NCBI GenBank assembly: GCA_003484955.1 | Contig: DMZH01000003.1 | Coordinates: forward strand, 47,815 to 111,814 | Source of the DNA: Candidatus Woesebacteria bacterium | GTDB taxonomy: Bacteria > Patescibacteriota > Microgenomatia > UBA8517 | DNA: 64,000 nt | Reading direction: 5' to 3' | Part shown: one piece after another, positions 9,413 through 49,222 of the stretch | How positions within the stretch are numbered: the first letter of the stretch is position 1 | Layout: each line of letters opens with the position of its first letter | Made by a program: the position numbers and the translations under genes | Notes under the pieces: generated by a model | What the model was told of the DNA's origin: nothing | Database searches by the model: none | What the model saw: the letters and a program-made list of their open reading frames with translations, nothing else

Positions 9413-10291
9413 ATGTCACTGACTAGAGCAGAATCCTCATATTATGTATATTTAACTGAACGCATGGATAAGGGCGAGAGTAAAAACATAGTTATTCCAA
9501 CAACTGTTGACCTTATCTCCAAACACTCACAACTCAAATCCGTAGTTAAAATATTAGATATTGGTTGTTTTAACGGAGCAATGCTTAATCAAATAAGACT
9601 CGGTACACCAGCTGAACTCAGGCAACGGGTTAGTTATACCGGAGCAGAAATTGACGGAAGTTTAATAGAAGATGGTAGAAAGAGATATCCAGAATTAAAT
9701 TTTCGTAAATTAAATTTGCAGGAACAATTACCAGACCTAGAACAATATGACATTGTTATATTATCAAATGTTTTACATGAAGTTATACCAAATAGCGAAA
9801 ATATAGATGTTGAGAAAGTAATTGGTGCATCATTAAAAAAGATTTCTTCACTTGTAACTGCAGATGGAGATTTGTTAATTTTAGACGGCTTAAGACCTGA
9901 CAACGATACTGATATTGTAGAGGTATGTTTTGCCACAAGTGAAGTTCATGAACTTTATAAGCAATTTGCCGAGAAATACACCGCTTTTAAAATATATGCA
10001 ACAGATCTTGGAGAAAATATAATTCAAACCAGAGTTAAGGATTTAGCAGCATTTCTTACTAAAGCAAGGTATTTGTTTGAAAGTTATTGGTCAATTGAAT
10101 CACAACAAATTTATCAATACTTCAACAAGCAGCAATTTACCAAAGCGCTACAATTATCAGGCTTCAGAATTGAAAGGCTTGAGCCGCAAAGATTTGATCA
10201 GGAGCATGTAGATAGAATGTTTTCCTCTATAACGCCTAAGATCGAATATCCTGCCAAAAATTTGTTAATTGTAGCGACTAAGAATAACTAA
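9413..10291 (+). CDS. Class I SAM-dependent methyltransferase
   Basis: Motif I ILDIGCFNG; post-I acidic residue; DIVILSNVLHEV. It is translationally coupled to the radical SAM gene by a 1-nt gap. Confidence 0.7.
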   Translation: MSLTRAESSYYVYLTERMDKGESKNIVIPTTVDLISKHSQLKSVVKILDIGCFNGAMLNQIRLGTPAELRQRVSYTGAEIDGSLIEDGRKRYPELNFRKLNLQEQLPDLEQYDIVILSNVLHEVIPNSENIDVEKVIGASLKKISSLVTADGDLLILDGLRPDNDTDIVEVCFATSEVHELYKQFAEKYTAFKIYATDLGENIIQTRVKDLAAFLTKARYLFESYWSIESQQIYQYFNKQQFTKALQLSGFRIERLEPQRFDQEHVDRMFSSITPKIEYPAKNLLIVATKNN

Positions 10292-11310
10292 CTTGCATTT
10301 AGAATGTCATGGATCGTCTTGGACACTTGGCCAAGATTTCCACCAGATACGCTCATTATTCCACTTTTTTTAACCATTTGGTTGATACAGTCTACTCGCC
10401 TATTGTGTTTATCTTCAGTATCCAACGAAGGCATGTAACCTAAAAACTTTGCTTCTTTACTAAATACACTTATAGCTGATCCTCTTACAATTCTAGACAT
10501 ATCTTCATACAATCGATACAAAAATGGAATTCCATCATCTTTTTCAACCAACAGAGGATCCTGTTCTTTACTGTCCAGGTGAATCTCAAAGATTGCATCT
10601 AATTTGTTAGGTTCTAGAGCTGAAACAAGACCTATTTGTTCGGGATTAACTGAAATTTTATCTTCCCAAGCCGATCCATTTGTCCCATGAAATAAGTCTG
10701 CTAAATCGGGAAAATTTCTTAAAACTGTTGACAGTCGTAATCTCAAATCCTTTGTACCATTAATTAAGTTTATGTCACCCGAGGCAGAATTATGCGATAC
10801 AACAGTTAAGTCGTTCGATACGACTTGCCCATTATATTTCCGACATAAATCAAGCATCACAGAAGTCTTTCCTGCACCACTATGCCCTAGTAACAACACT
10901 CCCTTACCATCAATGGTTAAGGCTGACGAGTGTAGCGTAAACAATGATTTCTCTTGTCTTTGAGCTTCCATTAACCAATAACTTGTCCACAAAACAGCCT
11001 GTCCATCTATGAAGTCGTCTTTACTTCCCATTAAGATGACTGAGGTTGTTTCTTCGTCAAACCTGAGTGATTTTGTATCACTTTCTATAAGAATTAATGA
11101 GGCCGAATTTTCCACTTTTGATTGGCCCACTATTAAACCAGGTACTATCCCTGAAAGATCTGCAATATTTGTTAATAAATCAACCTTTCGATCGTCAAAC
11201 TCTGTAAACAAATTGACACTCCCCTCTGGGGTTTGAAGATTGCCTTTAAAACCAGCTTGAGCAAATTTTTCTTTATCCTTGTTTCCGATTAAGCCTTCGC
11301 GTTCAGGCAT
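10288..11310 (-). CDS. HPr kinase/phosphorylase-like P-loop kinase (HprK-related family)
   Basis: LHSSALTIDGKGVLLLGHSGAGKTS matches the HprK C-terminal domain signature (LHG...GxGVLLxGxSGxGKS). Confidence 0.55.
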   Translation of the reverse strand: MPEREGLIGNKDKEKFAQAGFKGNLQTPEGSVNLFTEFDDRKVDLLTNIADLSGIVPGLIVGQSKVENSASLILIESDTKSLRFDEETTSVILMGSKDDFIDGQAVLWTSYWLMEAQRQEKSLFTLHSSALTIDGKGVLLLGHSGAGKTSVMLDLCRKYNGQVVSNDLTVVSHNSASGDINLINGTKDLRLRLSTVLRNFPDLADLFHGTNGSAWEDKISVNPEQIGLVSALEPNKLDAIFEIHLDSKEQDPLLVEKDDGIPFLYRLYEDMSRIVRGSAISVFSKEAKFLGYMPSLDTEDKHNRRVDCINQMVKKSGIMSVSGGNLGQVSKTIHDILNAS

Positions 11311-19341: not shown

Positions 19342-20751
19342 TTATTTTAACGATTTATCACTTACATCAAAGCCGGCATCTTTTATTCGGTCACGTATCT
19401 TATCTGCCTCTTCAAATTTTCCTTCGCTTCGAAGTCTGTCTCTTTCCTCCATCAGAGAGGAAATATTTTCCGGGATTTCGATACTTTTTGTTTCATTCAA
19501 TTTCAGTCCCAATATTTCATCAAAACTCATGGCTAAATCGTATTTATCTCCGGACGGAATGTTACTGCCAAGCATTGACCACAATACCGCCAACCCCCTG
19601 GCAGTATTTAAATCGTCATTGATTGCCTCTGAAAATTCGTTTCTGTATTCCTCAATTTTTATCTCCTTATCCTCCGACAAAACGGTTCGATTCGGCTCCC
19701 CGGCGGAACTTTGGTGAAGCTGGAAAATTTGAGATTTAAGTTTTGAAAGTGCTGTCTGGGAAGCTTCCAGTGAATCCCAGGTAAAATTCAGAGGGTCGCG
19801 ATAGTGTGCTCCTAAATAAAGATATCTTAGATCCAGCGGGTCAAATCCCTTTTTCTCTACATCCTCCACTGTGTAAAAATTATTTAAGCTTTTACTCATC
19901 TTGCGTCCATCGACCATTAAAAATGCCGTATGCAGCCAATATTTTACAAAGGGAGTTTTGCCAGTTGCCGCTTCACTCTGGGCTATTTCGTTGGGATGGT
20001 GAATGCTTATGTGATCCTCCCCACCGGTGTGAATGTCAATCTGTTCTCCCAAATATTTCATACTCATCGCGGAACACTCTATATGCCAGCCGGGAAATCC
20101 ATCCCCCCATGGTGAATCCCAATGCATGGTGTGGTTTTCAAATCTGCCGATCCTTTTAAACCAAAGGGTAAAATCGGCGGGGTTTTTCTTGTGTTCCCCT
20201 GTTTGGACTTCACCTCTTACCGCAACTTTTTTATCTTCAAGTTTTTGTCCGAAAGCCTCACCGTATTTAGGAAATTTTGAAATATCAAAATAAACCGCTT
20301 CGGGAGTATCATAGGCAAACTCTTTATCCATTAATTTTTGTACCAGTTCAATTTGCTCCTTGATGTGGTCTGTGGCCTTACAGATAAAATTGGGTTTTTC
20401 TATGTTCAATTTATCCATCGATTCATAGAAATTATTAGTAAAGAATTCTGCAACTTCCCAGACTGTTTTACCCTGTTTAGCTGCTCCCTTTTCCAGTTTA
20501 TCTTCCCCTTCATCCGCATCGGACACTAAATGTCCGACATCGGTAACATTTTGAACATGTTCAACTTTATAACCATTTACAGTAAGCACCCTTTTAAGAA
20601 TGTCGTCCGTAACATATTTTCTGCCATGCCCTATGTGAGCGTAATCGTAAACTGTCATGCCGCAGGTATACATTCCAACCTTGGGAGGATTGATTGGTAT
20701 AAATTTTTCTTTTTTGTGAGTTAGTGTGTTGGTTAAAAAAATATCGGCCAT
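19342..20751 (-). CDS. cysS: Cysteinyl-tRNA synthetase
   Basis: HIGH (HIGHGR) and KMSKS motifs, Zn-binding Cys. Confidence 0.9.
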   Translation of the reverse strand: MADIFLTNTLTHKKEKFIPINPPKVGMYTCGMTVYDYAHIGHGRKYVTDDILKRVLTVNGYKVEHVQNVTDVGHLVSDADEGEDKLEKGAAKQGKTVWEVAEFFTNNFYESMDKLNIEKPNFICKATDHIKEQIELVQKLMDKEFAYDTPEAVYFDISKFPKYGEAFGQKLEDKKVAVRGEVQTGEHKKNPADFTLWFKRIGRFENHTMHWDSPWGDGFPGWHIECSAMSMKYLGEQIDIHTGGEDHISIHHPNEIAQSEAATGKTPFVKYWLHTAFLMVDGRKMSKSLNNFYTVEDVEKKGFDPLDLRYLYLGAHYRDPLNFTWDSLEASQTALSKLKSQIFQLHQSSAGEPNRTVLSEDKEIKIEEYRNEFSEAINDDLNTARGLAVLWSMLGSNIPSGDKYDLAMSFDEILGLKLNETKSIEIPENISSLMEERDRLRSEGKFEEADKIRDRIKDAGFDVSDKSLK

Positions 20752-21330: not shown

Positions 21331-21939
21331 TCACAATTCTCTCCTTCCCTCAAGCGCGCGGGCCAGAGTCACCTCATCGGCATACTCCAGATCGGCACCG
21401 GTCGGAATCCCCATTCCCAATCTTGTAATTTTTACTTCTGAATTATTAATTTTTAACTGCTTCATCAGAAACATGCTCGTTGCTTCACCCTCCATTGTTG
21501 GGTTTGTGGCAATTATAGCCTCCTTTATGTCATCTTTATTGTCCTTTACCCTATTTAAAAGATCCTGTATATAAATTTCATCGGGACCAATATTTTCCAA
21601 CGGATTAATGGCACCATGCAAGACATGGTAAACCCCTTTGAACCTACCCATTCTTTCAAAAGCCAGAACATCCAGGGGTTCTTCAACAACCATTATCACC
21701 GAGTGGTCTCGGCTGTTATCTGAACAAATTGAACAGGGATCGGTCTCATTCACATTTTTACAAACCGAGCAAAGGACCGTATCTTTTTTAAGTCTTGAAA
21801 TACTTTCCGAGAAATCGTCAAGTTCTCGCTGAGGAACATGGAGAAGATAATAAGTTAGCCTCTGGGCCGATTTTGGTCCAATTCCGGGAAGTTTTTGAAA
21901 AGATTCAATAAGTGCTGCAATCGGGCGCGCTATTTTCAT
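21331..21939 (-). CDS. recR: Recombination protein RecR
   Basis: HhH N-terminus (LPGIGPKSAQRL), C4 zinc finger, Toprim. Confidence 0.9.
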   Translation of the reverse strand: MKIARPIAALIESFQKLPGIGPKSAQRLTYYLLHVPQRELDDFSESISRLKKDTVLCSVCKNVNETDPCSICSDNSRDHSVIMVVEEPLDVLAFERMGRFKGVYHVLHGAINPLENIGPDEIYIQDLLNRVKDNKDDIKEAIIATNPTMEGEATSMFLMKQLKINNSEVKITRLGMGIPTGADLEYADEVTLARALEGRREL

Positions 21940-30052: not shown

Positions 30053-31354
30053 TTAGGGCATGGGGAATTTTTTACATAAGTCCCTGACCTCGGAAGCGAT
30101 ATTTTTTAAGAACTCATCATTGGCAACTTTAATTCTAAAAGATTTAATATATTCTCCTCTTTTTTCTTTTACCTCGGGTAGTTTTTCATCTTTAACATGA
30201 TCAAGAACTTTTAAAATCCAGCCGGCAATAATTTTCATTTCAGGTTCGGTCATTCCGCGGGTTGTAATACCGGGAGTACCGAGTCTGATACCGGATGGAT
30301 AAAACGGAGGCGCCGAGTCATTTGGAACTGAGTTTCTGTTAACAATAATTCCTGCTGCTTCCAGCACTTCAGCGGCAATATTGCCGGATAGTCCAATCGG
30401 CCTCAGATCGACAACCATTAAATGACACTCGGTTCCTCCTGTTACCAATGTAAGTCCCCCATTTTTAAGTTCTTCTGCCAGGTATCTGGCATTAATAACA
30501 ATTTGTTTTCCATATTTCTTAAAGTCCCCAGAATCGGCCTCGATTAAGGCCTGTGCAATACCGGCGGTTGTGCCATTGTGAGGTCCACCCTGAAGCCCTG
30601 GAAAAACCGCTTTATCTATTTTGGAGGCTGTTTCAGGATCTTTTTCGATTCCTTTCTTGGTAACCATAATCATTGCCCCTCTCGGACCCCTTAGTGTTTT
30701 ATGCGTCGTGGTTGTGACAATATGGGTAAACGGAACCGGAGAAGGATATTCTCCTGCCAAAACTAAACCTGAAACGTGAGAGATGTCTGCCACCAGCCAT
30801 GATCCGACCAAATCGGCAATTTCTCCCAGCTTCTTCCAGTCAAGAATTAAAGGATATGCAGTCGTACCGATTATCATAAGTGCCGGTTTTTCCTTTCGAG
30901 CCAGATTTTCAACCTCGTTATAATCAATAATTCCATCGTCTTTAGTCCCAAACTGAACCGATTTATAAAATCTTCCAGAAAAAGTTATATCCGGATGTCC
31001 ATGGGTCAGATGCCCACCTGAAGAAAGTTTAAGTCCCATTATTGTGTCACCCGGATTAAGTAGCGCAAAAAGAACTTCAGCGTTTGCGGGAGAACCGGAA
31101 TATGGTTGGACATTTACGTGTTCAACTTTAAAAAGTTCCTTTGCTTTATCGATTGCAAACGTCTCGATCTCGTCGATAATTTTATTGCCTTGATAATAGC
31201 GCCTGCCGGAGTAGCCCTCGGAATATTTGTTCATAAGGACAGACCCAACAGCTTCGCGGACCTCTTTTGAGGCATAATTTTCCGACGGGATCAACATCAG
31301 GGTCTCCTCCTGACGCTTCTGCTCTTCTTTAATTAAATCGGAGATTATAACCAT
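30053..31354 (-). CDS. glyA: Serine hydroxymethyltransferase
   Basis: PLP motif TTTTHKTLRGPRG. Confidence 0.9.
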   Translation of the reverse strand: MVIISDLIKEEQKRQEETLMLIPSENYASKEVREAVGSVLMNKYSEGYSGRRYYQGNKIIDEIETFAIDKAKELFKVEHVNVQPYSGSPANAEVLFALLNPGDTIMGLKLSSGGHLTHGHPDITFSGRFYKSVQFGTKDDGIIDYNEVENLARKEKPALMIIGTTAYPLILDWKKLGEIADLVGSWLVADISHVSGLVLAGEYPSPVPFTHIVTTTTHKTLRGPRGAMIMVTKKGIEKDPETASKIDKAVFPGLQGGPHNGTTAGIAQALIEADSGDFKKYGKQIVINARYLAEELKNGGLTLVTGGTECHLMVVDLRPIGLSGNIAAEVLEAAGIIVNRNSVPNDSAPPFYPSGIRLGTPGITTRGMTEPEMKIIAGWILKVLDHVKDEKLPEVKEKRGEYIKSFRIKVANDEFLKNIASEVRDLCKKFPMP

Positions 31355-46316: not shown

Positions 46317-46388
46317 GCCGGCGTAACTCAGTGGTAGAGTAGCTGTTTTGTAAACAGCAAGTCAGAGGTTCGAATCCTCTCGTCGGCT
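46317..46388 (+). tRNA. tRNA-Thr (anticodon TGT)
   Basis: Cloverleaf folded by hand: acceptor gccggcg/cgtcggc, anticodon loop tttgtaa, TPsiC GGTTCGAATCC. Confidence 0.8.
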
Positions 46389-46392
46389 CAGC

Positions 46393-46477
46393 GCTGAGGT
46401 GGCGGAGCGGTCAAACGCACGAGACTGTAAATCTCGCGTCCGAAAGGGCTACTCAGGTTCGAATCCTGACCTCAGCA
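46393..46477 (+). tRNA. tRNA-Tyr (anticodon GTA), long variable arm
   Basis: Acceptor gctgagg/cctcagc, anticodon loop ctgtaaa, long extra arm, TPsiC GGTTCGAATCC. Confidence 0.75.
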
Positions 46478-46489
46478 CTTGTTTTATTT

Positions 46490-46549
46490 GCCTGGGTAGC
46501 TCAGTGGTAAGAAAATCTTGCCACTTTCTCTACCCAGGTTCGGTGACTC
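46490..46549 (+). other. Duplicated 5' fragment of tRNA-Thr(GGT) (20 nt identical) that continues into a 9-bp hairpin
   Basis: gcCTGGGTAGctcagtggtaagaaaatcttgccactttctCTACCCAGGttcggtgactc; the first 20 nt equal the start of the downstream tRNA. Confidence 0.7.
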
Positions 46550-46621
46550 GCCTGGGTAGCTCAGTGGTAGAGCACGTACTTGGTAAGTACGGGGTCGTGA
46601 GTTCAATCCTCACCTCAGGCT
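46550..46621 (+). tRNA. tRNA-Thr (anticodon GGT)
   Basis: Acceptor gcctggg/ctcaggc (one G-U pair), anticodon loop ttggtaa, TPsiC GAGTTCAATCC. Confidence 0.8.
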
Positions 46622-46627
46622 CAAATT

Positions 46628-46657
46628 ACTATTCACTATTCACTATTCACATATAAT
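46628..46657. promoter_or_regulatory. Heptamer tandem repeat (ACTATTC)x3 directly followed by a TATAAT-like -10 box, upstream of rpmG
   Basis: Read directly: actattc actattc actattc ac atataat. Confidence 0.6.
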
Positions 46658-46673
46658 TTGCTAGAATATCCCC

Positions 46674-46865
46674 ATGGCTAAAAAAGGTGCTAGAGAAATT
46701 GTGGCTTTGATTTGTTCTGTTTGCAAAAACCAAAATTATATTACAGAAAGAAACAAAGTTAATATGGAGTTAAAAGGAAAAAAAGACTCAAAACTTGAAC
46801 TGAAGAAGTACTGTCACAATTGCAGAAAAGTTCAGATCCACAAGGAATCTTCAAAGCTAAAGTAA
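46674..46865 (+). CDS. rpmG: Ribosomal protein L33
   Basis: CSVCKNQNY...CHNCRK zinc ribbon, 63 aa. Confidence 0.85.
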   Translation: MAKKGAREIVALICSVCKNQNYITERNKVNMELKGKKDSKLELKKYCHNCRKVQIHKESSKLK

Positions 46866-47343: not shown

Positions 47344-47483
47344 TGTATACCATTAAAGCTACTTAATCCAAAAATCCTCATATACCTTATAGTTAATTGA
47401 CTTTTGAAGCTATTTGGGATATCATCTCCCCATTCACCAATTGCGGTGAAAATTCGCACCTACACATTGAGGAGGAAAAGGAA

Positions 47484-47828
47484 ATGTCACGGAAAAGTTT
47501 GTCAGAAAAAGTCATTTTGGAAAATCGGGCTGGCGGAAAGGAAAGTAAAGTCGAAATATATATTGAAGCAGCCAAGGGACATCGGTCAATCAACCTTTGG
47601 GACTGGTCGGTTAAGATCACAGTCACCAGAAATGGGCATCCCTTTTCCAGCCAAGGCAACAATAAGCCAAATGAAAGTTTGGTCCACTTGATTAATCGGT
47701 TATTTGATGACATTCGCAGTGATATTTGTAATGCATACAAAAATTCGAATGTTGATTATGACCCGGTCTGTAGGTTTATTTCAGAAGCCCAGAAGAAATT
47801 TATGGCAGAACTATCTGCTGAAAAATAA
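47484..47828 (+). CDS. Hypothetical protein (start set at the Met after a strong GGAGG Shine-Dalgarno)
   Basis: gaggaggaaaaggaaATG; the listed ORF 47397-47828 has an earlier in-frame Met with no ribosome-binding site. Confidence 0.45.
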   Translation: MSRKSLSEKVILENRAGGKESKVEIYIEAAKGHRSINLWDWSVKITVTRNGHPFSSQGNNKPNESLVHLINRLFDDIRSDICNAYKNSNVDYDPVCRFISEAQKKFMAELSAEK

Positions 47829-47847
47829 ATTCTAGGCACCATTTATT

Positions 47848-47895
47848 GGGCGTTTTTATACAAGAAATTTTTGTGTAGAAACGCCCTTTATTTTT
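47848..47895 (+). terminator. Rho-independent terminator candidate
   Basis: gggcgttt...aaacgccc stem followed by a T-run. Confidence 0.5.
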
Positions 47896-47947
47896 CCTTC
47901 CTTTGCCCTCACAGGCTACATAAGGTAAAATTAGTAGTTGTTAACAA

Positions 47948-48018
47948 AGGGGCGTAGTTAAACGGCAGAACAGCGGTCTCCAAAACCGTTAATGGGGGTT
48001 CAATTCCCTCCGCCCCTG
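47948..48018 (+). tRNA. tRNA-Trp (anticodon CCA)
   Basis: Acceptor aggggcg/cgcccct, anticodon loop ctccaaa, TPsiC GGTTCAATTCC. Confidence 0.75.
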
Positions 48019-48102
48019 CTTAGTGAATTTAGCTTCAAAATATTAGATGCCTGGACGGAAGTTTGAACCTATACATAAAATTGATAATCGGGCTTGGATT
48101 TG

Positions 48103-48615
48103 ATGCAATCAGCCCGTGGTAAACAAAAATAACTATATCGTAAAAGCTCTCAGCGACTAGAGGCATCTTTTAGATGCTCTAATTGTCGCGCCATCCTTTC
48201 GGCTGATCCGCTAGGCACAAGACACAGAAACCATTGCCCGCTTTGCCTGTGGTCTAAACATGTAGACCTGAATACACCAGGAGATCGTAGGTCAAGCTGT
48301 TGTGCCAGAATGAGGCCACTAGCTCTAGCCTTTAAGAATTACGAAATCAACCCGTTTACTGGAAGGGGCGGAGGTGAACTGATGCTAATTCATCAGTGTG
48401 CTAACTGTGGCAAATTATCCCCTAACCGAATTGCTGGAGATGATAATGAGTATCAACTTCTTTCTATTTTGAGGGAATCGCTTAATCTAAACAGGGATAT
48501 TTCTAACCAACTTCAAAATTTGGGGTTAGAGCTTATCGTGTCTAAAAACAAAGAGGAGGCTTTGATTTCATTATTCGGAATCAATTACAAAAACTATTTG
48601 TCTCAAGAAGTTTAG
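48103..48615 (+). pseudogene. RNHCP-domain (zinc-ribbon) protein; the conserved N-terminal domain lies upstream of the only downstream ATG and is separated from the upstream ATG by an in-frame TAA
   Basis: In-frame translation gives FRCSNCRAILSADPLGTRHRNHCPLCLWSKHVD...SSCCARM...CANCG. The ATG at 48103 is followed by TAA at 48130; the ORF track only calls 48310-48615. Confidence 0.45.
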
Positions 48616-48730
48616 ATCAATCTGCGGAGAACGATAAACCAGTGATTGTTACTAAACTAATGACCCATTCAATAGGCATAGTAAGTTCGAATGGCTTCCA
48701 TCCAGGGCTGCAAAATTCTTTGAAGTAATG

Positions 48731-49222
48731 TTAGGCTAACAAATCTAGTGCTGCTTTACACGTATCTTCTAATGTACTCAAGATTTGTACGTCTGGACAA
48801 TCTTGAGAAAATCTTCTTTTAATATACTTCGTTCCCGAAAAACCCTCTTCTATTCCTATCACTATTTTTGCCCCATCTCTTTCGTGTTTTACTTTCCACT
48901 CGAACAATTCTCCTCTGGTCGTCTGTGCATAAGCCCTTTCGCAAACATGCGTTTCTTCCTTTGCCAACCAAAAAATGATTACACCGTTTCCTCCAGCTCT
49001 TCTGAGATGATACGTTTCCCAATCAACTTGTTCATTATATTGAACATCTTTATTAAAAGGTCTTTTTGGCGAAGCAATAGTGATTTCAGGATTTATTCCA
49101 TTAATAATTTCTTGAGCTTTAGATTGCCAATCAGGCGCTCCCTGTATTGGACCAGCCAAAAAGATTATTGATTTTCCCCCTTCTACATATTCGGGTGGAA
49201 TATATACACTTCTTTCAGACAT
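48731..49222 (-). CDS. Nucleoside 2-deoxyribosyltransferase-like (NDT/PTD-family) protein
   Basis: IIFLAGPIQGAPDWQ N-terminal motif typical of the NDT-like Rossmann family. Confidence 0.45.
   Translation of the reverse strand: MSERSVYIPPEYVEGGKSIIFLAGPIQGAPDWQSKAQEIINGINPEITIASPKRPFNKDVQYNEQVDWETYHLRRAGGNGVIIFWLAKEETHVCERAYAQTTRGELFEWKVKHERDGAKIVIGIEEGFSGTKYIKRRFSQDCPDVQILSTLEDTCKAALDLLA

What the first reader, a model, noticed from the sequence alone, without database searches (positions are those of the whole stretch)
48103..48615. RNHCP-domain gene whose conserved domain is cut off from any start codon by an in-frame TAA
In frame with the annotated 101-aa ORF, the upstream 180 nt encode a clear zinc-ribbon RNHCP domain (FRCSNCRAIL...GTRHRNHCPLCLWSKHVD...SSCCARM). 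There is no ATG, GTG or TTG between the TAA at 48130 and the first Cys. The only upstream ATG (48103) is 9 codons before that TAA. The domain-coding stretch is also GC-richer than its surroundings. Possible explanations are a point-mutated pseudogene, a sequencing error, or stop-codon readthrough or recoding.
Basis: seen in the sequence. Interest (0 to 1): 0.5.

Follow-up and report, generated by a model that had tools for sequence, protein, structure and literature searches.

The report
Conserved -1 frameshift starts RNHCP gene
The zinc-ribbon gene is not broken: its first ten codons lie in a different reading frame, and the ribosome most likely slips back one base at a conserved AAAA run to reach the rest, an arrangement kept in 84 related genes from two bacterial phyla that gene callers routinely miss.

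Summary
The RNHCP domain (Pfam 94.9 bits) extends 180 nt upstream of the called 101-aa ORF. It is closed by TAA 48130 and has no ATG, GTG or TTG in frame.

It is not a pseudogene, an assembly error or TAA readthrough. The uncalled part is under strong purifying selection (11 synonymous to 1 non-synonymous change against the nearest relative). The identical sequence occurs in independent assemblies.

84 of 138 distinct RNHCP loci share one anatomy, and they form one clade. They come from Patescibacteria and Anaerolineae, including the cultured Pelolinea submarina. The anatomy has four parts:
- A start codon in the +1-offset frame, usually 6-9 nt after a TATAAT-like box (window GTG 48116).
- 8-14 codons in that frame.
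- A Z_ZZN slippery tetramer at a fixed position (window A_AAA 48142-45; elsewhere T_TTT or T_TTC).
- A hairpin 6-8 nt downstream (window 48153-48189), which is absent from relatives that have ordinary in-frame starts.

The best explanation is an obligatory -1 programmed ribosomal frameshift near the 5' end of a probably leaderless mRNA. The product would be a 166-aa protein, MVNKNNYIVK|SSQRLEASFRC... The mechanism is of a known kind (tetramer plus stem-loop, as in IS3 and IS1). I found no description of this gene family using it. Nothing here is experimentally verified.

The parts
48081..48086 (+). Candidate -35 hexamer TTGATA, 17 nt upstream of the -10 box.
   Evidence: Read from the sequence. 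The same place in group-1 relatives reads CCTATAGTTGATAA or TTGTTA. The consensus scanner did not call this promoter, so this part is inferred.
48101..48109 (+). Candidate extended -10 box TGaTGCAAT.
   Evidence: Relatives have TGnTATAAT or TACAAT at the same place, 6 nt before the frame-A start. The window has G at hexamer position 2, so it scores 4 of 6. An alternative promoter, TGGACG-18-TAAAAT at 48052-48081, was found by the scanner.
48116..48118 (+). GTG start codon of the short ORF in the +1-offset frame ('frame A'). This is the proposed true initiation codon, probably at or near the 5' end of the mRNA.
   Evidence: The same position is ATG in L001, L011, L092, L012, L013, L014 and L016, and GTG in L017, L091 and L097. 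Across the 84 frameshift-type loci the start is ATG in 65, TTG in 10 and GTG in 9.
48116..48160 (+). Frame-A ORF of 14 codons plus TAG, encoding MVNKNNYIVKALSD*. This is what a ribosome that does not shift would make.
   Evidence: The first 10 codons are conserved as a peptide in group 1 (M-x-N-K-x-N-Y-I-V/A-K). Past the tetramer, frame A is not conserved as protein: the synonymous fraction is 0.11-0.14, against 0.40-0.49 in the RNHCP frame.
48130..48132 (+). TAA in the RNHCP frame.
   Evidence: A stop in this frame lies 7-37 nt upstream of the slip codon in all 84 frameshift-type loci.
48142..48145 (+). Slippery tetramer A_AAA. The frame-A codon is AAA 48143-45 and the -1 codon is AAA 48142-44. 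This is the proposed site where tRNA-Lys re-pairs one base back.
   Evidence: It is the only Z_ZZN motif between the last RNHCP-frame stop and the frame-A stop. It is invariant in group 1 (alignment A2). The equivalent site in other loci is T_TTT or T_TTC. All 84 loci have one at a fixed distance from the first Cys codon. Z_ZZ.N tetramers are established -1 shift sites (PMC4066793).
48153..48189 (+). Predicted stem-loop of 15 pairs: GCGACUAGAG-G-CAUCU / UUU / AGAUGCUCUA-AUU-GUCGC. It starts 7 nt after the slip codon and is the proposed frameshift stimulator. It overlaps the codons for ...RLEASFRCSNCR.
   Evidence: MFE -17.4 kcal/mol, z -2.56. In 18 group-1 sequences 91.5% of cells are paired, against 24-46% with slid partners. 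The equivalent hairpin in 45 group-2 sequences is 88.1% paired, with a C:G to G:C swap in 11 of them. It is present in frameshift-type loci (mean MFE -15.6) but not in in-frame-type loci (-5.5).
48145..48615 (+). RNHCP reading frame from the first codon after the shift (AGC, Ser) to TAG 48613-15, 156 codons. The predicted full product is 166 aa: MVNKNNYIVK + SSQRLEASFRC...SQEV.
   Evidence: Purifying selection on 48145-48309 gives synonymous:non-synonymous counts of 11:1, 14:5, 14:3 and 22:8 against four relatives.
48163..48462 (+). RNHCP domain (PF12647), full length.
   Evidence: hmmscan gave 94.9 bits and E 2.9e-27, covering profile positions 2-90 of 90.
48310..48615 (+). The mechanically called 101-aa ORF. 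It is a 5'-truncated call that starts at a conserved internal Met of the domain.
   Evidence: 59 of the 120 best database homologs cover only 51-74% of the query. Those I read start at this Met or at other internal positions.

Best explanation
The gene is intact and is expressed through an obligatory -1 programmed ribosomal frameshift about ten codons into the message.

Transcription probably starts at or just before GTG 48116, six bases after a -10-like box. The mRNA is therefore probably leaderless, or has a very short leader, like many genes in this genome. Ribosomes initiate at GTG 48116 in a frame offset by +1 from the RNHCP frame and translate MVNKNNYIVK. At the tetramer A_AAA (48142-45), tRNA-Lys re-pairs one base back. 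A 15-pair hairpin that begins 7 nt downstream (48153-48189) probably promotes this. Translation then continues in the RNHCP frame from AGC 48145 to TAG 48613-15. The product is a 166-aa protein with two zinc-binding motifs. Ribosomes that do not shift stop at TAG 48158 after 14 codons.

The following are shown by the analysis: the two-frame anatomy, its conservation, selection on both parts, the fixed tetramer, and a hairpin specific to this clade. The following are inferred: that the shift is ribosomal, how efficient it is, where the transcript starts, and whether the shift is regulated or merely sets a low expression level.
For: 1. The N-terminal zinc-ribbon part, which has no start codon, is translated. 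Synonymous:non-synonymous counts over 48145-48309 are 11:1 (L001), 14:3 (L013), 14:5 (L091, L094) and 22:8 (L012). This is at least as strong as in the annotated part. The synonymous fraction in the RNHCP frame downstream of the tetramer is 0.40-0.60, against 0.05-0.22 in the other frames.

2. The anatomy recurs. 84 of 138 distinct loci lack an in-frame ATG after the last stop. All 84 have a frame-A start (ATG 65, TTG 10, GTG 9), then 8-14 codons, then one Z_ZZN tetramer (T_TTT 61, A_AAA 20, T_TTC 3) at -26 or -32 (rarely -35 or -38) nt from the first Cys codon.

3. The base before the slip codon is a third codon position in frame A. It always equals the run base (GAT, ATT, GCT, GGT or GTT before TTT; GTA, GCA, GAA or TTA before AAA).

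4. 79 of the 84 loci have 1-4 stops in the RNHCP frame between the frame-A start and the first Cys. A different start or single-stop readthrough therefore cannot rescue them.

5. All 85 frameshift-type sequences form one clade in a neighbour-joining tree of the domain, with one in-frame exception, L132. The clade spans Davies-, Woese-, Gottesman-, Roizman-, Collier-, Dojka- and Kaiserbacteria and Anaerolineae. It includes the complete genome of the cultured Pelolinea submarina MO-CFX1.

6. The hairpin supports a ribosomal mechanism. It starts 7 nt after the slip codon in the window and 8 nt after it in Pelolinea. It is 88-92% paired across sequences, against 18-46% in slid controls, with some compensatory change. 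Mean MFE is -15.6 kcal/mol in frameshift-type loci and -5.5 in in-frame relatives.

7. Z_ZZ.N tetramers with a downstream structure are an experimentally established -1 frameshift signal. A_AA.G, U_UU.C, U_UU.U and A_AA.A are the tetramers used in the IS1 and IS3 families (PMC4066793).

8. A TATAAT-like box (at least 5 of 6 matches in 55 of 68 loci) sits mostly 6-9 nt before the frame-A start. Many other genes in this window have the same box-to-ATG spacing and no Shine-Dalgarno sequence.
Against: There is no experimental or proteomic evidence for the trans-frame product.

A_AA.A was the weakest of the six active tetramers in E. coli. Tetramers gave only 0.26-5.6% shifting there, even with a strong pseudoknot. 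Efficiency could therefore be low unless the hairpin or the host tRNA-Lys behaves differently.

The hairpin overlaps conserved codons (SFRC). Part of its conservation is therefore protein-driven, and the covariation signal is modest and not phylogenetically independent.

In the window the -10 box is TGCAAT, with G at the usually invariant second position, and the consensus scanner did not call it. The scanner found another promoter-like site at 48052-48081. That site would give a leader of about 30 nt, so a leaderless start is inferred for this locus, not shown.

Selection on the ten frame-A codons is only weakly resolved (synonymous fraction 0.30 against 0.24 in the RNHCP frame). The case for frame A upstream rests mainly on its open frame and conserved start codon, set against the stops in the RNHCP frame.
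Confidence: 0.8

Rival explanations
1. The frame change is made in the RNA, not on the ribosome. RNA polymerase stutters on the AAAA or TTTT run and inserts one extra base, so a fraction of transcripts carry the two parts in one frame.
For: The conserved feature is a homopolymer run, and a one-base insertion there gives the same protein. One relative contig (L171) reads AAAAA and has the frames fused.
Against: The runs are only 4-5 bases. From my own knowledge of the literature, productive transcriptional slippage in bacteria uses runs of about 8-9 or more; the paper read notes only that A7 and U7 are avoided. A conserved hairpin 6-8 nt downstream is the signature of ribosomal, not transcriptional, slippage. 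L171 also carries a second homopolymer indel that breaks the conserved domain (GELM... becomes GEFND...). Its extra A therefore looks like sequencing noise.
Confidence: 0.07
2. Translation starts in the RNHCP frame itself, downstream of TAA 48130, at a non-standard codon or by an unknown initiation mechanism. The short frame-A ORF would then be a separate leader peptide or a coincidence.
For: A few relatives have TTG 7-8 codons before the first Cys, and gene callers use it (for example P0001 and P0010: MRQ(E)ASFRC).
Against: That position is not conserved as a start. In other sequences it is CAG, TCG, CCG, CAT, GAT, CGG, CTT or TTA. The window has no ATG, GTG or TTG and no single-base near-cognate start between the TAA and the first Cys. 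This rival also does not explain the invariant tetramer, the fixed distance of the frame-A start, or the -10 box placed for the frame-A start.
Confidence: 0.05
3. Only the called 101-aa ORF from Met 48310 is made. The upstream zinc-ribbon sequence is a decaying remnant (a pseudogenised 5' part) or an assembly error.
For: Gene callers produce this model here and in about half of the close homologs.
Against: The upstream part evolves mostly by synonymous change (11:1, 14:3). It contains the most conserved residues of the family: F9, C11, C14, RNHC and C34 are invariant in 35 sequences. The 101-aa ORF carries only a third of the Pfam domain. The arrangement is kept throughout a clade of 85 sequences down to about 45% identity. 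Identical sequence occurs in independent assemblies and in a finished isolate genome.
Confidence: 0.02
4. This is the first reader's version: ribosomes start at ATG 48103 and read through TAA 48130.
For: In this window ATG 48103 is in frame with the domain, nine codons before the TAA.
Against: The ATG is ATA in the closest relatives, which keep the TAA. It lies inside the -10-like box and would not be transcribed from that promoter. Other members have 2-4 stops in this frame (for example HA**R*, YE**I*). No readthrough context is conserved.
Confidence: 0.01

Closest known systems
-1 programmed frameshifting on Z_ZZ.N tetramers with a downstream stem-loop or pseudoknot, as in IS3- and IS1-family transposase genes (Sharma et al. 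2014, PMC4066793)
   Same: There are two overlapping ORFs, with the downstream one in the -1 frame. The slippery tetramer is of the same types (A_AA.A, U_UU.U, U_UU.C). An RNA structure lies a few nucleotides downstream. The functional protein is the trans-frame fusion.
   Different: The gene is not a transposase, and no IS ends were seen. The upstream ORF is only 8-14 codons up to the shift, so it contributes no domain. The shift sits at the very 5' end of a probably leaderless mRNA. The unshifted product is a 14-20 aa peptide that is not conserved past the shift site.
prfB (release factor 2) +1 frameshift at codon 26 (my own knowledge; mis-annotation of its N-terminus is mentioned in PMC3711429)
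   Same: The frameshift is early in the ORF and is obligatory for making the only functional product. It is conserved across many bacteria and is routinely mis-annotated as a truncated protein or a pseudogene.
   Different: The direction is -1, not +1. There is no stop codon in the A site at the shift site and no upstream Shine-Dalgarno stimulator. The autoregulatory logic is known for prfB and unknown here.
dnaX -1 frameshift (A_AAA_AAG heptamer, upstream SD, downstream hairpin; my own knowledge, reviewed in PMC5009743)
   Same: It is a cellular, non-mobile bacterial gene that uses -1 slippage of tRNA-Lys with a downstream hairpin.
   Different: dnaX uses a tandem heptamer and produces a second, shorter product alongside the full-length one. 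Here the site is a tetramer and the shift is needed for any functional product.
RNHCP domain family (Pfam PF12647), function unknown
   Same: There is a full-length domain match. The CxxC...RNHCPxC...C...CxxC pattern is conserved.
   Different: About 60% of the loci fetched here belong to a clade whose gene needs a frameshift. Members outside that clade have ordinary in-frame ATG starts, no tetramer and no hairpin.

Membership tests
RNHCP domain protein (PF12647) | The Pfam HMM match is above the gathering score and covers the whole profile. | tested here: met
   The match scores 94.9 bits against a cutoff of 24 and covers profile positions 2-90 of 90. This holds only when the 180 nt upstream of the called ORF are included.
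RNHCP domain protein (PF12647) | The cysteine pairs and the RNHCP motif are conserved. | tested here: met
   The window has C-SN-C, HRNHCPLC, CC and C-AN-C. C11, C14, R28-N-H-C31, C34, C52, C85 and C88 are invariant in the 35-sequence alignment A4.
-1 programmed ribosomal frameshift (tetramer type) | There are two overlapping ORFs. The downstream one is in the -1 frame relative to the one that carries the start codon. | tested here: met
   Frame A runs from GTG 48116 to TAG 48158-60. The RNHCP frame is open from 48133 and is offset by -1. The same holds in all 84 frameshift-type loci.
-1 programmed ribosomal frameshift (tetramer type) | A slippery Z_ZZN motif lies inside the overlap and allows cognate re-pairing in the -1 frame. 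| tested here: met
   The window has A_AAA at 48142-45. The loci have T_TTT (61), A_AAA (20) or T_TTC (3), at a fixed position.
-1 programmed ribosomal frameshift (tetramer type) | A stimulatory RNA structure lies about 5-9 nt downstream of the motif. | tested here: met
   A hairpin is predicted at 48153-48189 after a 7-nt spacer, with MFE -17.4. It is conserved and specific to the frameshift clade. That it actually stimulates the shift is inferred.
-1 programmed ribosomal frameshift (tetramer type) | The frameshift is conserved across divergent homologs, with selection on both sides. | tested here: met
   One clade of 85 sequences from two phyla keeps it. Selection downstream is clear. Upstream, the frame is open, the start codon is conserved and the group-1 peptide motif is conserved.
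-1 programmed ribosomal frameshift (tetramer type) | The trans-frame protein is detected and depends on the motif. | not testable with these tools
   This needs a reporter assay, mass spectrometry or ribosome profiling.
Stop-codon readthrough | An in-frame upstream start and a single leaky stop are conserved among relatives. | tested here: not met
   ATG 48103 is ATA in L001, L011, L091 and L092. 44 of 84 loci have 2-4 stops in that frame.
Pseudogene or assembly error | Selection is relaxed, and the lesion is sporadic and lineage-specific. | tested here: not met
   Synonymous:non-synonymous counts are 11:1 to 22:8 in the 'orphan' part. The same anatomy is in 84 loci. The sequence is identical in independent assemblies.
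Transcriptional slippage | The homopolymer run is long (about 8-9 bases or more; my own knowledge). | tested here: not met
   The runs are 4-5 bases. Transcripts themselves were not examined.
Leaderless mRNA | The transcription start lies at the start codon, with the -10 box about 6-8 nt upstream and no Shine-Dalgarno sequence. | tested here: inconclusive
   Relatives have TGnTATAAT 6-9 nt before the start, and many other genes in the window show the same pattern. In the window itself the box is the weaker TGCAAT, the scanner did not call it, and a second promoter-like site lies upstream. There is no 5'-end mapping.

The most novel reading that the evidence does not exclude
The frameshift is a regulatory device and not just a fixed throttle. 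The hairpin that stimulates slippage is built from the very codons of the protein's first zinc knuckle (SFRCxxC). The zinc-ribbon RNHCP protein, or zinc availability or a tRNA state, might therefore act on this hairpin to tune its own synthesis. That would be an autoregulatory -1 frameshift on leaderless mRNAs, maintained across Patescibacteria and Anaerolineae. The gene with its signal also behaves as a small cassette. It is found in different contexts with a junction at a tRNA 3' end.
Probability: 0.15. Interest if true: 0.85.

Novelty: new member of a known kind. Interest (0 to 1): 0.7.

Why it matters
Conserved -1 frameshifts in cellular (non-mobile, non-phage) bacterial genes are few. This would add a whole gene family spread over two phyla. 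One of its organisms, Pelolinea submarina, is cultured, so the prediction can be tested directly.

The case also shows a blind spot. The upstream ORF is only about 10 codons, so ab initio frameshift finders and gene callers cannot see it. As a result, about half of the close RNHCP homologs in the protein databases are truncated and lack their first zinc-binding motif. Domain-level analyses and structure predictions of this family inherit that error.

A frameshift placed about 30 nt from the 5' end of a leaderless message is also an unusual setting for studying how early-elongating ribosomes respond to slippery sites and structures.

Tried and rejected
- Rfam scans of 47800-48700 and 48600-48780 at E up to 10 found only tRNA-Trp. 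No known RNA family covers the element.
- Literature searches for RNHCP, for PF12647 and for programmed frameshifting plus Patescibacteria found nothing relevant. The GeneTack survey and the 2016 recoding review do not mention this family; the searched terms zinc, Chloroflexi, leaderless and Anaerolinea turned up no mention of it.
- P0024/L171 looked like a natural in-frame version, with AAAAA in place of AAAA. The same contig has a second homopolymer indel that breaks the domain, so I treat it as noisy sequence, not evidence.
- I tested a +1 shift from the third frame at TTT TAG (48169-74). That frame has no start codon and has stops throughout (the B-start and B-stop columns), so I rejected it.
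- I considered tRNA adjacency as a functional clue. tRNA-His is next to several group-1 loci and to Pelolinea's gene. However, only about a third of 60 further loci have any tRNA within 3 kb, which is near my rough expectation for small genomes. The sub-threshold Thg1C hit (E 0.09) is most likely chance.
- Phase-of-variation analysis upstream of the tetramer in group 2 was uninformative, because the short N-terminal peptides are too diverged and differ in length.
Full report
**1. The observation**

Read in one frame, 48103-48615 gives MQSARGKQK*LYRKSSQRLEASFRCSNCRAIL...CCARMRPLALAFK...SQEV*. TAA is at 48130-32, the first Cys codon is at 48175, and the Met of the mechanically listed 101-aa ORF is at 48310. 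No ATG, GTG or TTG lies in frame between the TAA and the first Cys, and no single-base near-cognate start lies there either.

Pfam RNHCP (PF12647) matches the stretch that begins after the TAA. It scores 94.9 bits and covers profile positions 2-90 of 90. The 101-aa ORF alone keeps only profile positions 58-90. The region is richer in G+C than its surroundings (0.47-0.50 against 0.396).

Three independent assemblies are identical to the window over 48020-48309, and the exact ORF is on at least 23 contigs. An assembly error at 48130 is therefore excluded without looking at reads.

**2. The orphan part is translated**

Against the nearest relative (L001), the 55 codons at 48145-48309 differ at 12 codons, and 11 of the differences are synonymous. 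Against L013 the count is 14:3, against L091 and L094 it is 14:5, and against L012 it is 22:8. The annotated 101 codons show 9:9, 36:30, 28:8, 32:27 and 34:29 against L001, L013, L091, L094 and L012.

Across 18 and 50 related sequences, the fraction of differing codons that are synonymous is 0.40-0.60 in the RNHCP frame downstream of position -30 relative to the first Cys. In the other two frames it is 0.04-0.22. The most conserved residues of the family lie in this part. This excludes a pseudogene and excludes a protein that begins at Met 48310.

**3. The same anatomy recurs in a large clade**

A protein search returned 505 homologs. Of the best 120, 59 cover only 51-74% of the query. Those I read begin at the same internal Met (M[RQK]P[LIV]A[LI]AFK) or at other internal positions. 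That was the first sign that the truncation is systematic.

I fetched DNA for 160 related loci, 80 from metagenomes and 80 from species-representative genomes, plus 10 contigs that carry the closest homolog. Of 138 distinct loci with enough upstream sequence, 84 have no in-frame ATG after the last upstream stop.

All 84 share the following layout:
- A start codon in the frame offset by +1 ('frame A'): ATG in 65, TTG in 10 and GTG in 9.
- 8-14 codons up to and including the slip codon.
- One Z_ZZN tetramer: T_TTT in 61, A_AAA in 20 and T_TTC in 3. It sits at a fixed distance from the first Cys codon: -26 in 64 loci, -32 in 17, -35 in 2 and -38 in 1.
- A stop in the RNHCP frame 7-37 nt upstream of the slip codon.
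- Termination of frame A 4-40 codons after the slip codon.

The base that precedes the slip codon is a third codon position in frame A. Without exception it matches the run base (GAT, ATT, GCT, GGT or GTT before TTT; GTA, GCA, GAA or TTA before AAA). In 79 of the 84 loci the RNHCP frame has 1-4 stops between the frame-A start and the first Cys.

In the window's subgroup the frame-A peptide is conserved as M-x-N-K-x-N-Y-I-(V/A)-K. The same bases read in the RNHCP frame give strings such as HA**R*LHRK.

**4. Phylogenetic distribution**

In a neighbour-joining tree of the first 100 residues of the domain, all 85 frameshift-type sequences fall in one clade. That clade contains a single in-frame exception, L132, on a long branch. 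The 50 other in-frame sequences form the rest of the tree.

By the record titles, the clade includes Davies-, Woese-, Gottesman-, Roizman-, Collier-, Dojka- and Kaiserbacteria, Minisyncoccales and Anaerolineae. It includes the complete genome of the cultured Pelolinea submarina MO-CFX1 (sequence).

Within the clade, the A_AAA type (the window, Daviesbacteria and Woesebacteria) is a subclade nested among T_TTY types. One member, L023, carries both motifs. The slip site has therefore been replaced while the frameshift itself was kept.

**5. The hairpin**

In the window, 48153-48189 folds into a 15-pair stem-loop with MFE -17.4 kcal/mol and z -2.56. It begins 7 nt after the slip codon. In Pelolinea, a 9-pair stem begins 8 nt after U_UUU.

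On the 18-sequence alignment of the window's subgroup, 91.5% of cells form standard pairs, against 24-46% when partners are slid by 1-3 columns. Four pairs show changes on both sides. On 45 sequences of the T_TTY type, 88.1% are paired, against 18-42% slid. There is a C:G to G:C exchange in 11 sequences and G:U, A:U and G:C alternation at a pair that joins the first position of the Ala/Thr codon to the third position of the Cys codon.

The structure overlaps the conserved codons for (Q/E)(A/T)SFRC(L/S), so protein constraint contributes to its conservation. The sequences are also related, so these counts are supportive rather than decisive. A cleaner contrast comes from comparing the two gene types. 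The 42-nt segment around the first Cys codon folds to a mean of -15.6 kcal/mol in the 84 frameshift-type loci and -5.5 in the 54 in-frame loci. The eight core pairs are all present in 60 of 84 frameshift-type loci and in 0 of 54 in-frame loci. The hairpin therefore goes with the frameshift, not with the protein family as such.

**6. Initiation**

In 55 of 68 frameshift-type loci, a box matching TATAAT in at least 5 of 6 positions, often preceded by TGn, lies mostly 6-9 nt upstream of the frame-A start. That spacing places the transcription start at or next to the start codon.

In the window itself many unrelated genes have the same spacing and no Shine-Dalgarno sequence. Examples are the genes starting at 550, 43702 and 49366 and the minus-strand genes at 10288-11310, 19342-20751 and 30053-31354. 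Leaderless initiation therefore appears to be common in this genome.

For this locus the box is TGaTGCAAT (48101-09). It has G where the nearest relatives have A (TACAAT). The consensus scanner did not call this box. It reported TGGACG-18-TAAAAT at 48052-48081 instead. The leaderless start is therefore an inference for this locus.

**7. Mechanism and comparison with known systems**

The parts are a short ORF with the start codon, a downstream ORF in the -1 frame, a Z_ZZN tetramer in the overlap and a structure 6-8 nt downstream. These are the defining parts of tetramer-type -1 programmed ribosomal frameshifting.

Sharma et al. measured all 16 tetramers in E. coli. With a strong downstream pseudoknot, six were active, in the order A_AA.G >> U_UU.C > U_UU.U > C_CC.U = C_CC.C > A_AA.A, at 0.26-5.6%. 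A_AA.G, U_UU.[U,C] and A_AA.A are the tetramers that predominate in IS1 and IS3 elements (PMC4066793). The motifs found here are U_UU.U, A_AA.A and U_UU.C.

I therefore propose that tRNA-Lys re-pairs from AAA 48143-45 to AAA 48142-44 and that decoding continues with AGC 48145. The product would be MVNKNNYIVK-SSQRLEASFRC... (166 aa). Ribosomes that do not shift would release MVNKNNYIVKALSD.

Four things differ from the IS paradigm. The gene is not a transposase. The upstream ORF contributes about 10 residues and no domain. The site lies about 30 nt from the probable 5' end. The shift is obligatory for any functional product, which in that respect resembles prfB, although the direction and trigger differ.

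**8. Rivals**

- Transcriptional slippage gives the same protein. However, the runs are only 4-5 bases, and it would not need a hairpin at ribosomal spacing. I give it 0.07.
- Initiation within the RNHCP frame has no conserved candidate codon. The TTG used by some gene callers is CAG, TCG, CCG, CAT, GAT, CGG, CTT or TTA elsewhere. I give it 0.05.
- A truncated protein or pseudogene is contradicted by the selection data (0.02).
- Readthrough from ATG 48103 is contradicted by the loss of that ATG in the nearest relatives and by multiple stops in others (0.01).

**9. What the protein does**

**10. Novelty and verdict**

No Rfam family covers the element. I found no paper in the searchable library on RNHCP or PF12647, and none linking frameshifting to these phyla. 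The large frameshift survey and the 2016 review do not mention the family in the text searched.

The mechanism is of a known kind, and the gene family is a new case of it. My confidence that a -1 ribosomal frameshift at the tetramer is how the gene is expressed is about 0.8. The remaining uncertainty is that everything rests on comparative sequence analysis.

Noticed in passing
window 48012-48019 (3' end of tRNA-Trp 47948-48019); L172 and L001: Homology between the window, L172/L173 and L001 starts exactly at ...CCTGCT, the 3' end of tRNA-Trp. L172/L173 are identical from 48020 onward but have a UDG gene upstream instead of the tRNA. L001 has a 97-aa ORF upstream. The RNHCP gene and its promoter behave like a small cassette with a junction at a tRNA end.
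   Followed up: partly
window 48685-48712; L001 2337-2364; L011 1014-1041: A 28-nt element, GTTCGAATGGCTTCCATCCAGGGCTGCA, lies about 70 nt downstream of the RNHCP gene in the window, L172, L173 and L174. In the L001/L011 type it lies about 450 nt upstream, before the 97-aa ORF. It has no Rfam match, and ARAGORN calls no tRNA there. It is unexplained.
   Followed up: partly
L014, L018, L021, L095, L096, L019, L171, L119, L127, L133, L135: tRNA-His(gtg) lies next to or near RNHCP genes in many loci. In Pelolinea submarina and UBA5211 it is immediately downstream. The C-terminal half of the window protein gives a sub-threshold Pfam hit to Thg1C, the tRNA-His guanylyltransferase C-terminal domain (E 0.09). 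Overall tRNA adjacency is near my rough expectation for small genomes, so this is probably chance plus synteny.
   Followed up: partly
window, many genes (e.g. starts at 550, 43702, 49366; minus-strand genes 10288-11310, 19342-20751, 21331-21939, 30053-31354): TGnTATAAT-like boxes sit 6-8 nt upstream of ATG starts, and Shine-Dalgarno motifs are almost absent. Leaderless mRNAs appear to be common in this genome (G+C 39.6%; stop usage TAA 49, TGA 20, TAG 12 among ORFs of at least 120 aa).
   Followed up: partly
L171 1501-1820 (Logan SRR28521206 contig): This relative reads GGAAAAAGT (five A) at the slip site, which fuses the two frames (P0024: MSKHRFSANKHKDFGKSSSRQESSFRC...). The same contig has an extra T that breaks the conserved GELMIIHQC segment. 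This is probably homopolymer sequencing noise rather than a natural in-frame allele.
   Followed up: yes
L132 (CAYIUD010000072.1), about 1680-1700: This is the only member inside the frameshift clade that has ordinary in-frame ATG codons 7-8 codons before the first Cys (MMVGSSFLCGQC) and no tetramer. It may be a reversion to a standard start. It sits on a long branch.
   Followed up: no
L023 (JABAOH010005667.1), -32 and -26 nt from the first Cys codon: This locus carries both A_AAA and T_TTT tetramers in the overlap. It may be an intermediate in the replacement of one slip site by the other between subclades.
   Followed up: no
window 46317-46865 and 47848-47886: A tRNA-Thr, tRNA-Tyr, tRNA-Thr cluster is followed by a 63-aa ORF that I read as ribosomal protein L33 by eye (46674-46865). 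A strong terminator-like hairpin (18 pairs plus a T-run) at 47848-47886 follows the ORF at 47397-47828, just upstream of tRNA-Trp.
   Followed up: no
record titles of L091, L094, L102, L110, L118, L126 and others: Several species-representative MAGs that carry Patescibacteria-type RNHCP loci are titled 'uncultured Gammaproteobacteria', 'Pseudomonadales', 'Spirochaetia' or 'Pacearchaeota archaeon'. These labels look unreliable, so taxon statements here rest on the better-labelled records.
   Followed up: no
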